Origin: an uncultured cyanobacterium
GTDB lineage: Bacteria > Cyanobacteriota > Cyanobacteriia > CAKZMO01
Direction: 5' to 3'
Length of the DNA stretch: 64,000 nucleotides
NCBI GenBank assembly: GCA_963719515.1
Contig: CAVRCJ010000010.1
Span: 448,001 to 512,000 of the forward strand
Shown here: positions 31,239 through 32,230 of the stretch, piece by piece
Numbering within the stretch: position 1 is the first letter of the stretch
Layout: the number at the start of each line of letters is the position of its first letter
Notes under the pieces: model-generated
Seen by the model: the letters and a program-made list of their open reading frames with translations, nothing else
The model's database searches: none
What the model was told of the DNA's origin: nothing
Position numbers and translations under genes: made by a program

Positions 31239-31355
31239 CGCTCTCCTGAGTAACTTTTGTCAGCCCAGGGCCTTTCCTGCAGCTGGCCACATCCTTGAGC
31301 TTGGCAAGACGACTGCCGCCTATAATTTCAATCTATTAGTGAGGCTTTAGCTACT

Positions 31356-31742
31356 AGACAGGAAGCCCCGCGCTCTACCCGTCAGGGTGAGCGTCGGGAT
31401 GAGAGTCGCGCTGGCCGAAGTGCGCCCGCAAAATGATGCACAGCGGATAGTGCGCTCAGCGCTGAGGCTAGCAGTTGGTATGATAGAGATAGCAAGGTGA
31501 TACACCCCGCAAAGAGTGTGACGGGCCCGTAGGCGAAAGCTGCAAGTCACCCGTTCCTCAGTTTGCAAATGTATCTGCGACACATAGTGCGTATCCTCCC
31601 TCGCGGAGATGAAAATTCAAAACTCTGCCGTGGGGCATCAGGCGGAGTATAAACCTATCTCAGGATATGTCTCGGCAATAGCTGGGAGTCACTGAGGAAG
31701 CCCGCGCTGTACAGCTTGCTGTCAGCGTCGGGAGGATGTCAC
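31356..31742 (+). mobile_element. ORF-less IS200/IS605-type element (left junction approximate)
   Basis: Two related subterminal hairpins GAAGCCC(C)GCGCT...AGCGTCGGGA at about 31362-31399 and 31697-31733; right end GGATGTCAC; no credible ORF between them. Confidence 0.8.
31476..31484 (+). promoter_or_regulatory. Extended -10 promoter-like motif inside the ORF-less element
   Basis: TGGTATGAT (TGn-TAnnaT) directly before the structured region. Confidence 0.55.
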
Positions 31743-31762
31743 CAAATGTCACCCAAAGAGCG
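31491..31762 (+). ncRNA. Candidate omegaRNA-like structured RNA (scaffold plus about 20-nt flank-derived guide)
   Basis: GNRA-capped hairpins, ACTCTGCC/GGCGGAGT stem, long-range TTCCTCAGT/ACTGAGGAA pairing, terminal right-end hairpin. Confidence 0.55.
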
Positions 31763-32027
31763 ACCTAACGGCAACGAGCAGCAGACGACGCCTGCAAATC
31801 TGGTTCAGCGCTTTCTACTTGGCGCTTTCTTCAGCGGCCTGTTCGTCTTCGTCTACTTGACGCTATCCCTTGAGATGACCCATGTGTCTCTGATGGAGTT
31901 TGGCAGACTCAAGCTAGCGGCAGCGATCGCCGCCCCTGTTCTGTGTGGCATAGCGTCCGCTGCCTATGGAGACCGAGCTACCAAGCTAATTGCGGCAACG
32001 ATGGATTCCGTCAATCTCCCCTTCTAG
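31746..32027 (+). CDS. Small two-TM hypothetical protein
   Basis: 93 aa from ATG 31746; two hydrophobic helices. Confidence 0.65.
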   Translation: MSPKERPNGNEQQTTPANLVQRFLLGAFFSGLFVFVYLTLSLEMTHVSLMEFGRLKLAAAIAAPVLCGIASAAYGDRATKLIAATMDSVNLPF

Positions 32028-32157: not shown

Positions 32158-32230
32158 TGGAGCTAAGCGGATTCGAACCGCTGACTTCCTCAATGCCATT
32201 GAGGCGCTCTACCAACTGAGCTATAGCCCC
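32158..32230 (-). tRNA. trnA: tRNA-Ala(GGC), CCA not encoded
   Basis: GGGGCTATAGCTCAGTTGGTAGAGCGCCTCAATGGCATTGAGGAAGTCAGCGGTTCGAATCCGCTTAGCTCCA; G3:U70 pair. Confidence 0.97.

What the first reader, a model, noticed from the sequence alone, without database searches (positions are those of the whole stretch)
31356..31762. Protein-free IS200/IS605 element carrying a promoter-like motif and a ~250-nt structured RNA: candidate stand-alone omegaRNA/guide cassette
Seen: two related IS200/IS605-type end hairpins (GAAG-CCC(C)GCGCT...AGCGTCGGGA) enclose about 300 bp with no credible ORF. An extended -10 motif (TGGTATGAT, 31476-31484) is followed by dense pairing. The stems are TACAC-CCC-GCAA-AGAGTGTG; ACGGG...CCCGT enclosing GC-GAAA-GC; CTCC/GGAG; ACTCTGCC/GGCGGAGT (31622-31648); TCTCAG/CTGGGA; and a perfect long-range 9-bp match of TTCCTCAGT (31554-31562) with ACTGAGGAA (31691-31699). 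The right-end hairpin ends at TCAC (31742). Established: TnpB omegaRNA scaffolds are encoded at the right end and take their guide from flanking DNA. Inference: this is not a random deletion remnant but an RNA-only mobile unit. TnpA could move it in trans, and it could program a TnpB in trans with the guide CAAATGTCACCCAAAGAGCG. The extra 5' GNRA-loop domain could be an undescribed RNA module. Caveat: the left junction reads CTAC rather than the TCAC expected from the GAAG guide, so the left end is uncertain.
Basis: partly seen in the sequence, partly recalled or inferred. Interest (0 to 1): 0.85.

Follow-up and report, generated by a model that had tools for sequence, protein, structure and literature searches.

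The report
Gene-less transposon carrying TnpB guide RNA
This is one of 53 near-identical copies of a 392-base, protein-free jumping element in a cyanobacterium that keeps only its two hairpin ends, a promoter and a folded guide RNA for a DNA-cutting enzyme (TnpB) made elsewhere in the genome; this kind of element is known, but the conserved folded domain at the front of its RNA is not described.

Summary
The feature is real. The unit (window 31351-31742, preceded by the target word TTTAG) occurs 53 times in this genome at 96-100% identity. It shares both ends with 15 tnpB-only and 3 tnpA+tnpB IS200/IS605 elements in the same genome.

Its last ~121 nt are homologous to the 3' end of tnpB elements. 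They form four helices backed by strong covariation, in the same order as the solved ISDra2 omegaRNA scaffold.

A -10 box sits at a fixed distance upstream in 19 of 20 uncut related upstream sequences. Directly behind it lies a 77-nt domain (31499-31575). Its core is almost invariant and its closing helices covary. I saw it only in protein-free elements of several cyanobacterial families. It is absent from Rfam and from the resident tnpB elements.

Verdict: an omegaRNA-carrying PATE, most likely moved by TnpA and read by TnpB in trans. That kind is already published. This scan has also noted such elements on other DNA, including another family in this genome.

Expression could not be tested.

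The parts
31346..31350 (+). TTTAG: conserved word just left of the element; inferred insertion target and TnpB TAM (flank, not part of the element)
   Evidence: 53/53 copies carry NTTAG here (T 47, G 3, C 3 at the first base) ahead of unrelated flanks. The tnpB-bearing elements have the same word, and so do distant relatives. Its role as target/TAM is inferred from IS608/ISDra2 biology.
31351..31742 (+). The whole protein-free element (392 bp): a PATE of the IS200/IS605 family
   Evidence: blastn finds 53 full-length copies at 96-100% identity; median identity to the consensus is 0.995. There is no target duplication and no terminal inverted repeat.
31351..31418 (+). Left end, shared with the tnpB elements; imperfect hairpin CCCCGCGCT 31366-31374 / AGCGTCGGG 31390-31398, preceded by GAAG 31362-31365
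   Evidence: Element positions 1-73 match the 1488-bp and ~1.8-kb elements at 92-96%. Coordinates.
31476..31484 (+). Extended -10 promoter box TGGTATGAT (hexamer TATGAT 31479-31484); predicted start near 31491
   Evidence: A TAnnnT hexamer lies 38-42 nt (type A, 8 rows) or 68-70 nt (type B, 11 rows) before the domain core in 19 of 20 uncut distinct upstream sequences; the 20th shows it by eye. TGn is present in 9 of those 19. The strict scan does not call it, because there is no -35. The start site is inferred.
31499..31575 (+). Conserved 5' RNA domain: closing helices P0 (GATACA 31499-31504 / TGTATC 31570-31575) and P1 (GCA.A within 31507-31516 / T.TGC within 31561-31569) around a near-invariant core (31520-31557) that holds a small hairpin with a variable loop
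   Evidence: Model R1 alignment A2 (19 distinct sequences): 87.7% of cells paired against 29-44% when the partners are slid; covariation 0.260 against 0.133 in shuffles (0/500). P0 is at least 6 bp in 17/19 sequences, with 10 different helix sequences. Found in 28 loci, all protein-free where the context is visible. No Rfam match.
31595..31608 (+). Small hairpin CCTCC-loop-GGAG
   Evidence: Present with differing loops in type A and type B relatives. Read by eye, not counted.
31622..31648 (+). Hairpin H1 (stem ACTCTGCC/GGCGGAGT, loop GTGGGGCATCA), the counterpart of omegaRNA stem 1. In tnpB elements the same hairpin encodes ..AVGHQA..
   Evidence: Alignment A3: 7 of 8 pairs change on both sides while the loop stays conserved.
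31658..31697 (+). Helix A ((T)CTCAG 31658-31663 / CTGAG(G) 31692-31697) enclosing helix B (TCTCGGC 31670-31676 / GCTGGGA 31681-31687)
   Evidence: helix A 95% paired, with two compensatory changes at one pair (L105, L118); helix B has 5 of 7 pairs changing on both sides.
31701..31732 (+). Right-end hairpin (CCCGCGCTG.../...CAGCGTCGGG, bulged T): TnpA recognition structure and last stem of the RNA scaffold
   Evidence: 94% paired, 8 of 12 pairs change on both sides. Coordinates.
31734..31742 (+). Right-end tail GGATGTCAC; the element ends at 31742
   Evidence: All 53 copies end in GTCAC ahead of unrelated flanks.
31743..31762 (+). Flanking DNA that would serve as the guide (16-20 nt); it overlaps the start codon (31746) of a 93-aa ORF
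   Evidence: Position is read from the sequence. The guide role is inferred from TnpB biology.

Best explanation
The element is a non-autonomous, protein-free derivative of an IS200/IS605 insertion sequence (a PATE) whose only cargo is a promoter and a ~250-nt RNA gene.

Proposed mechanism:
1. The Y1 transposase TnpA, encoded by the three tnpA+tnpB elements of the same genome, recognises the two subterminal hairpins. It excises the top strand and inserts it 3' of TTTAG. (Shown: shared ends and target word. Inferred: the reaction itself.)
2. From its own extended -10 promoter (31476-31484) the element transcribes an RNA. The RNA starts near 31491, runs through a 77-nt 5' domain and a 121-nt omegaRNA scaffold, and crosses the right end at 31742 into ~16-20 nt of flank, which becomes the guide. 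(Inferred.)
3. TnpB made by the resident tnpB elements binds this scaffold in trans. After excision it cuts the empty site (TTTAG + guide), so that recombination restores the copy. This gives the gene-less element the same retention benefit as its parents. (Inferred by analogy with published TnpB homing.)
4. The 5' domain most likely stabilises or helps mature the free-standing RNA. Its role is open.
For: Copies and ends:
- 53 copies at 96-100% identity, all between NTTAG and GTCAC, with no duplication.
- The left 73 nt (92-96%) and the right 85 nt (85-88%) are shared with 15 tnpB-only and 3 tnpA+tnpB elements, which sit in the same NTTAG...GTCAC frame.

Partner proteins:
- Pfam finds Y1_Tnp at 7.5e-41 for TnpA, and OrfB_IS605, Cas12f1-like_TNB and HTH_OrfB for TnpB.
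- 13 of 15 tnpB-only elements and 2 of 3 long ones keep the full frame.
- TnpB aligns to the solved TnpB chains 8bf8/8h1j at 5e-44. GVDVG, the E of AHEKL and RDHNAA lie opposite the corresponding motifs.

3' scaffold (mini elements aligned with tnpB-linked ends, 18 sequences):
- 90.6% of cells paired against 35-45% when slid.
- 21 of 33 pairs change on both sides.
- Covariation 0.378 against 0.161 in shuffles, 0/500.
- The H1 loop is kept in the mini elements although it no longer codes.
- The helix order is that of the 116-nt ISDra2 scaffold: stem 1, stem 2 around stem 3, stem 4, tail (passages).

Promoter: the -10 box is conserved in position across 19 of 20 uncut distinct upstream sequences.

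Constraint within this genome: shared polymorphisms among the 53 copies number 7 in 105 nt of left end and spacer, against 1 in 287 nt of promoter plus RNA (p = 5e-4). That one change keeps helix B paired.

Against: - No transcript data bear on it.
- No empty site was found, so the exact left junction (before or after TTTAG) rests on analogy.
- The mini's H1 stem and the inner part of its right-end hairpin differ from those of the resident tnpB elements; the right end is only 85-88% identical. Compatibility with the resident TnpA and TnpB is therefore plausible but untested.
- In ISDra2 the 5' part of the omegaRNA is processed off and dispensable. The most conserved part of this RNA is thus not explained by the guide-RNA role.
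- Fold energy alone is unremarkable: z about -2.4 on both strands.
Confidence: 0.7

Rival explanations
1. An inert deletion derivative. The element is mobilised by TnpA through its ends, and its interior is only leftover tnpB 3' sequence with no RNA function. The structure is kept merely because the copies are young.
For: The 3' 121 nt are a relic of the tnpB 3' end: frame 31609-31695 still reads ..AVGHQA...SGYVSAIAGSH like the TnpB C-terminus. The 53 copies are too alike to show selection copy by copy.
Against: Relatives in other genera and families keep the same helices through compensatory changes. They also keep the -10 box in place and the H1 loop without any coding need. These features lie 45-250 nt inside the ends, so they would be unnecessary if TnpA needs only the subterminal hairpins. 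Subfamily-level substitutions avoid the RNA part.
Confidence: 0.1
2. The RNA acts mainly without TnpB. For example, it could be a host-affecting small RNA, or an outward promoter that drives the genes next to each copy. In that case the 5' domain, not the guide scaffold, is the functional part.
For: The 5' domain is the most conserved segment and was found only in protein-free elements. Transcription would read out of the right end; in this window that leads straight into an ORF starting 3 nt after the end.
Against: The omegaRNA scaffold is maintained by covariation in the same lineages. Copies sit at unrelated places, and in 20 of 53 copies removing the element in silico leaves a stop-free stretch of 72-361 aa across the junction, which may mean some lie inside genes. 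This fits a selfish element better than a regulator. No target or partner is known.
Confidence: 0.12
3. The 5' domain is simply the remodelled tnpB-internal part of the omegaRNA precursor (zinc-finger/RuvC-III coding region), kept only because the promoter lies upstream of it.
For: Weak collinear resemblances to the resident tnpB element: GGTATGAT..GAGATAGC against GGTACATT..GAGATAGGC, and ATCTGCGAC against ATCTGTCGCGAC, which encodes ICRD (by eye). The overall lengths are similar.
Against: Local alignment of the interior to the parent scores 42, against 38 +/- 5 for shuffles. Model R1 finds no match in any resident tnpB element at E <= 1. The resemblances are missing in the other type A relatives. 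The near-invariant core across families argues for a constraint of its own.
Confidence: 0.2

Closest known systems
PATE-like protein-free IS200/IS605 elements of Geobacillus stearothermophilus that encode omegaRNAs (Meers et al., preprint PMC10055086; passages read)
   Same: No protein gene. Left and right ends are shared with tnpB/iscB elements of the same genome. They carry an omegaRNA that must be used in trans by TnpB, and mobilisation by a TnpA encoded elsewhere is presumed.
   Different: Here there are 53 copies, outnumbering the 18 protein-coding relatives. The element has its own positionally conserved -10 box and an extra 77-nt conserved 5' domain. I found no mention of such a domain in the passages read or in four literature searches. 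The host is a cyanobacterium and the TAM word is TTTAG.
Stand-alone omegaRNAs of OMEGA systems (Altae-Tran et al. 2021, as summarised in PMC10691335; passages read; the 2021 paper itself was not read)
   Same: Mobilised guide RNAs without effector or transposase, in genomes that also hold effector-containing loci. They are reported to work in trans.
   Different: The published trans test is known to me only from the summary. The biological role is stated there to be unknown. No 5' domain is mentioned in the passages read.
PATEs of Haloquadratum walsbyi (Dyall-Smith et al. 2011, PMC3119063; passages read)
   Same: All four defining features are met: no terminal inverted repeats, palindromes near the ends, no target duplication, too short for a transposase. 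'Homogeneous' PATEs there also expanded at over 90% identity, and one keeps part of the tnpB C-terminal region.
   Different: That work treated them as DNA repeats; no RNA cargo or promoter was considered.
ISDra2 TnpB omegaRNA (Nakagawa et al. 2023, PMC10097598; passages read)
   Same: The resident TnpB is a clear homologue (E = 5e-44 to chains 8bf8/8h1j). The ISDra2 scaffold is 116 nt plus guide: stem 1, stem 2 enclosing stem 3, stem 4, then a tail that forms a pseudoknot with the stem 1 loop. The 121-nt scaffold here shows the same order of helices.
   Different: The pseudoknot is only a possibility here (loop GUGG with terminal UCAC, which never varies). In ISDra2 the 5' region (-231 to -117) lies inside tnpB, is disordered or processed, and is dispensable. 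Here the equivalent region is non-coding and is the best conserved part.

Membership tests
PATE (palindrome-associated transposable element; definition in PMC3119063) | No terminal inverted repeats | tested here: met
   Both end hairpins lie in the same orientation on the + strand (GAAGCCC(C)GCGCT...AGCGTCGGG at 31362-31398 and 31697-31732).
PATE | Palindromes close to both termini, similar to those of IS605-type elements in the genome | tested here: met
   Hairpins lie 16 nt from the left end and 10 nt from the right end. The ends match the tnpB and tnpA+tnpB elements at 85-96%.
PATE | No target-site duplication | tested here: met
   53/53 copies have NTTAG on the left and unrelated sequence on the right.
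PATE | Too short to encode a transposase; no conserved ORF | tested here: met
   392 bp. The longest stop-free stretch is 89 aa and is frame-broken in the 93% relative.
IS200/IS605 family, non-autonomous member | A Y1 (HUH) TnpA in the genome, carried by elements with the same ends | tested here: met
   3 elements of ~1.8 kb carry a 159-aa Y1_Tnp protein (E = 7.5e-41).
IS200/IS605 family, non-autonomous member | Insertion 3' of a fixed 4-5 nt word, shown by filled and empty sites | tested here: inconclusive
   The fixed word is present in 53/53 copies, but no empty site was found in this genome or in 5 related genomes.
TnpB omegaRNA | Scaffold encoded at the right end, homologous to the region overlapping the 3' end of tnpB | tested here: met
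   The last ~121 nt align with tnpB-linked right ends of this and other genomes, and the shared structure covaries.
TnpB omegaRNA | Transcript crosses the right end and carries ~16 nt of flank as guide | not testable with these tools
   No RNA run could be examined, so there are no data on the transcript. Only the conserved promoter position is known.
TnpB omegaRNA | Bound by TnpB and directs TAM-dependent DNA cleavage | not testable with these tools
   Needs RIP-seq and cleavage assays. The resident TnpB keeps the motifs aligned to the catalytic D-E-D of the solved TnpB (residue roles recalled).
Any Rfam 15 family (including known ribozymes, riboswitches and transposon-associated RNAs) | Match to a curated covariance model | tested here: not met
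   No match on the element at E <= 10, and none on five related elements at E <= 1.
Classical MITE (e.g. Nezha of Anabaena/Nostoc) | Terminal inverted repeats and flanking direct repeats | tested here: not met
   Nezha is described with TIRs and direct repeats (PMC3184786 passages). This element has neither.

The most novel reading that the evidence does not exclude
The 77-nt 5' domain may be a new class of structured RNA that belongs specifically to gene-less, mobile guide RNAs of cyanobacteria. It is better conserved than the guide scaffold itself. It heads elements with at least two differently diverged scaffolds and right ends, and it is absent from the tnpB elements that these mini elements exploit. 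It could be an adaptation for life without a nuclease gene: protecting or maturing the free RNA, helping it compete for TnpB against the parent's own cis-made guide, or making guide production conditional. On that reading the element is a hyperparasite that has outgrown its hosts, 53 copies to 18.
Probability: 0.25. Interest if true: 0.65.

Novelty: new variant of a known kind. Interest (0 to 1): 0.4.

Why it matters
Guide-RNA-only transposons show that the parts of the TnpB system (transposase, nuclease, guide) can live on separate elements and parasitise each other. That is the same modularity from which CRISPR-Cas12 guide RNAs are thought to have arisen.

This family is a clean natural test case:
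- It is very successful, with 53 copies.
- Its partner genes are intact.
- It has a conserved promoter.
- It has a well-defined extra RNA domain whose deletion can be tested directly for effects on RNA level, TnpB loading and element retention.

For tool builders, a natural, self-promoted, trans-acting omegaRNA with a possible stabilising 5' module may be of practical use. As a kind of element it is already known.

Tried and rejected
- RNA evidence: the look-up of sequencing runs listed no RNA holder.
- Empty sites in related genomes: the window locus and one candidate gene-interrupting copy (C5) were searched in 4-5 related genomes. Only one flank, or short pieces, matched at ~80% identity, so no empty site was found.
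- Empty sites in this genome: no place holds both flanks of any copy adjacent to each other.
- Rfam: nothing on the element or on five relatives.
- Descent of the interior from the resident tnpB: local alignment is no better than shuffles. By-eye resemblances are kept only as a weak rival.
- Small ORFs: the 89-aa minus-strand stretch and the 28-aa frame 31609-31695 are not conserved in relatives.
- Strict sigma-70 scan: it finds no + strand promoter. The -10 box rests on comparative position instead.
- Guide off-targets: 16-nt guides of the 53 copies were searched with up to 2 mismatches. Matches occurred at chance level and none was preceded by TTAG. This is uninformative.
- Nezha: I recalled it as an IS200/IS605-type MITE, which was wrong. 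It has TIRs and direct repeats.
- Type B parents: in five genomes the type B right end matched only mini elements and ~90-nt solo right ends, not tnpB genes.
- Search of this scan's notes by sequence found nothing.

Full report
**What is there.** The window lies in a 5.28-Mb, 21-contig genome. Record titles of loci that share the element's 5' domain name only cyanobacteria: Elainellaceae/Elainellales MAGs, Baaleninema simplex PCC 7105, Nodosilinea and Leptolyngbyaceae.

blastn finds this block 53 times in the genome as full-length copies. Rounded identities are 100% for 15 copies, 99% for 30, 98% for 6, 97% for 1 and 96% for 1. There are 34 distinct sequences, and median identity to the consensus is 0.995.

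Every copy begins with (T/G/C)TTAG and ends with GTCAC, and the flanks are unrelated. By the logic of IS200/IS605 elements, the left word is the insertion target and stays outside the element. The element proper is then 31351-31742 (392 bp).

**Relatives in the same genome.** The other 50 blastn pieces are the ends of larger elements.
- There are 15 full-length copies of a 1488-bp element, plus one 1373-nt partial, and 3 copies of a ~1.8-kb element.
- They share the left 73 nt (92-96%) and the right 85 nt (85-88%) with the mini element.
- In the 16 of 18 whose left end I had placed correctly, they sit in the same NTTAG...GTCAC frame.
- The long form encodes a 159-aa Y1 transposase (Pfam Y1_Tnp, 7.5e-41) on one strand and a 398-aa TnpB (OrfB_IS605, Cas12f1-like_TNB, HTH_OrfB_IS605) on the other.
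- The 1488-bp form has tnpB plus a 60-aa ORF where tnpA would be.
- 13 of 15 short forms and 2 of 3 long forms keep the full tnpB frame; all 3 long forms keep the tnpA frame.
- TnpB aligns to the solved TnpB chains 8bf8/8ex9/8exa and 8h1j at E = 5e-44. GVDVG, the E of AHEKL and RDHNAA lie opposite the motifs that, by recall, hold the catalytic D, E, D.

**The 3' half is an omegaRNA scaffold.** A class-wide BLAST (401 genomes) matched only the last ~95-135 nt outside the genus. The matches were at the 3' ends of tnpB genes and in other protein-free elements.

I aligned 18 such ends: 8 protein-free elements, 8 ends I labelled tnpB-linked and 2 uncertain. Of those 8, an open tnpB-type reading frame running into the end was seen for six; for L102 and L104 none was listed at 120 aa or more. 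On this alignment I counted a four-helix structure.
- 90.6% of cells are paired, against 35-45% when the partners are slid.
- 21 of 33 pairs change on both sides.
- The covariation score is 0.378, against 0.161 in shuffles (0 of 500 reach it).

In window coordinates the helices are:
- H1: 31622-31629 / 31641-31648, with loop GTGGGGCATCA.
- Helix A: 31658-31663 / 31692-31697.
- Helix B: 31670-31676 / 31681-31687.
- Right-end hairpin: 31701-31732, followed by the tail GGATGTCAC.

In tnpB elements, H1 encodes ..AVGxQA.. of the TnpB C-terminus. In the mini elements the stem is different and longer, and a 6-nt insertion follows, yet the loop is kept. This points to an RNA-level constraint.

The order of helices (a stem 1, a stem that encloses another stem, a last hairpin, then a short tail before the guide) is that of the 116-nt ISDra2 omegaRNA scaffold seen by cryo-EM (PMC10097598, passages). 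A pseudoknot like the ISDra2 one is possible (loop GUGG with terminal UCAC). Neither side ever varies, so it remains an inference.

**Promoter.** TGGTATGAT (31476-31484) has no -35, and the strict scan does not list it. Among 21 distinct upstream sequences of related elements, one is cut by a contig end. Of the remaining 20, 19 have a TAnnnT hexamer at a fixed distance before the domain core: 38-42 nt in eight 'type A' sequences and 68-70 nt in eleven 'type B' sequences. TGn is present in 9 of those 19. In the last sequence (L140) the box is visible by eye. The hexamers differ (TATGAT, TACAAT, TATACT, TATAAT, TAAAAT, TAGGAT, TACCAT, TAAGAT), so it is the position that is conserved, not just the sequence. 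The start near 31491 is inferred.

**The 5' domain.** Immediately after the predicted start lies a 77-nt unit (31499-31575).
- An exact-pattern scan for its core found 12 loci in the genome collection and 7 in metagenomes.
- A covariance model built from 14 sequences (R1) hit exactly the 53 copies in this genome and none of the tnpB elements at E <= 1. In that search, 150 of 1991 first-look candidates were scored.
- R1 hit 10 of 151 sampled genomes of the class. One hit (24 bits, inside an ORF) looks spurious.
- All contexts I could see are protein-free. Of 28 loci, 13 show both a left-end arm and a right end by a strict pattern, giving element lengths of 364-494 bp. In several others the left end is visible by eye, five reach a contig end on the upstream side, and L117/L139 and L141/L146 show no left hairpin; in L123 the promoter abuts TTTAG directly. 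None has a tnpB frame upstream.
- On the model-fitted alignment (19 distinct sequences), 87.7% of cells pair against 29-44% when slid, and the covariation score is 0.260 against 0.133 (0/500). This alignment leans towards the model.
- The closing helix P0 is at least 6 bp in 17 of 19 sequences, with 10 different helix sequences: for example GATACA/TGTATC here, GATGCA/TGCATC and GGTACA/TGTATC in the genus, GATTGT/ACAATC in other type A, and GCTTTC/GAGAGC in type B. A best-helix search on shuffled 3' segments reaches 6 bp in 27% of trials.
- P1 also covaries.
- The inner helices hardly vary, so they are neither supported nor refuted. Two invariant G-U pairs fit the + strand only.
- The core GACCGACCCGTAGGC-loop-GCCGCAAGTCCCCCGTTTCC is almost invariant across families, while the loop varies.

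Type A and type B elements share the overall plan (domain, CCUCC/GGAG hairpin, an H1-like hairpin, further helices, right end), but their 3' halves have diverged. Other protein-free relatives (for example L040, L100, L091-L101) have different 5' regions.

- Supported: ACTCTGCC/GGCGGAGT, CTCC/GGAG (by eye) and the small GC-loop-GC hairpin (but not its GNRA loop).
- Not supported as drawn: TACAC/GTGTG, ACGGG/CCCGT and TCTCAG/CTGGGA (see the observation check).
- The perfect 9-bp match 31554-31562 / 31691-31699 is real, but its 3' strand is also the 3' strand of helix A, which has compensatory support in L105 and L118. Outside the genus only a weaker, non-varying GUUUC/GAAGC potential remains (by eye). 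It may be an alternative pairing; I cannot tell.

**Evidence on constraint within the genome.** Substitutions shared by at least 4 of the 53 copies number 7 in the 105 nt of left end and spacer, but only 1 in the 287 nt from promoter to right end (Fisher p = 5e-4). That one change (31672 T/C) turns a G-U pair of helix B into G-C. The numbers are small, but the direction fits an RNA that matters to the master copies.

**Origin.** The mini's inner right-end hairpin is identical to tnpB-linked ends in other families and differs from the resident parents. The protein-free elements share derived features absent from the tnpB-linked ends: the longer H1 stem, and the insertion after it, which 8 of 8 protein-free sequences have and none of the 8 ends labelled tnpB-linked. 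This suggests an old protein-free lineage that travels between cyanobacteria and uses local enzymes, not a fresh deletion of the resident element. That is inference.

**Comparison with the literature.** The kind is known.
- Meers et al. describe PATE-like elements lacking protein genes. [quoted passage not shown] - The element meets all four defining features of PATEs in PMC3119063 (passages).
- I found no description of the 5' domain in Rfam 15, in the passages read, or in four full-text searches. This is not proof of absence, and the supplements of these papers were not read.
- This scan has noted similar gene-less guide-RNA elements in other genomes, and another family in this genome. Some of those notes also mention undescribed 5' domains. 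I used them as leads only.

**Verdict.** This is a real, very successful omegaRNA-carrying PATE with its own promoter. The mechanism (TnpA and TnpB in trans) is likely but unproven. The element type is known; the conserved 5' domain is the one part that is new and unexplained.

Noticed in passing
window 32158-32230 (- strand): A tRNA gene (Rfam tRNA, 69 bits) lies about 400 nt downstream of the element.
   Followed up: no
L156:130-312 (- strand) = G000:C15, inside the 1488-bp tnpB element: A 60-aa ORF (MQQITIRAADREKQHL...) sits where tnpA lies in the long form, on the strand opposite tnpB.
   Followed up: partly
L171, L172, L176, L177, L184 (G050, G022), around position 1500-1593 of each locus: About 90-nt 'solo right end' units: TTTAG is followed directly by the last ~88 nt of the type B mini element (TATAAAAAGCTCG...GTCAC), 98-99% alike, at five or more unrelated places. 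They look like even smaller mobile derivatives with only one hairpin.
   Followed up: partly
L123 (metagenome contig), upstream of the 5' domain: A type B RNA unit whose promoter abuts TTTAG directly, with no left-end hairpin.
   Followed up: no
L107 (Baaleninema simplex PCC 7105 record), downstream of the 5' domain: This copy is 494 bp. A ~130-bp insert bounded by inverted repeats (GGGTGCATCTCA... / ...TGAGATGCACCC) sits inside the H1-like hairpin, so it appears to be a nested MITE. Two sister copies (L109, L116) lack it.
   Followed up: no
window 31746-32027 (+ strand): A 93-aa ORF with hydrophobic stretches starts 3 nt after the element's right end, so the element's promoter would read into it and the guide overlaps its start codon. 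No match to this ORF was found in the four loci fetched around the upstream gene's orthologue in same-genus genomes.
   Followed up: partly
window 31609-31695 (+ strand): A 28-aa frame (MKIQNSAVGHQAEYKPISGYVSAIAGSH*) is a relic of the TnpB C-terminus (..NRAVGHQALNLSGNVSAVAGSH*). It is not kept in relative L090, which has a stop after three codons.
   Followed up: yes
window 31362-31365 and 31697-31700: Both ends carry the same GAAG 5' of the hairpin foot, yet the words at the two cleavage sites differ (TTAG on the left, TCAC on the right).
   Followed up: no
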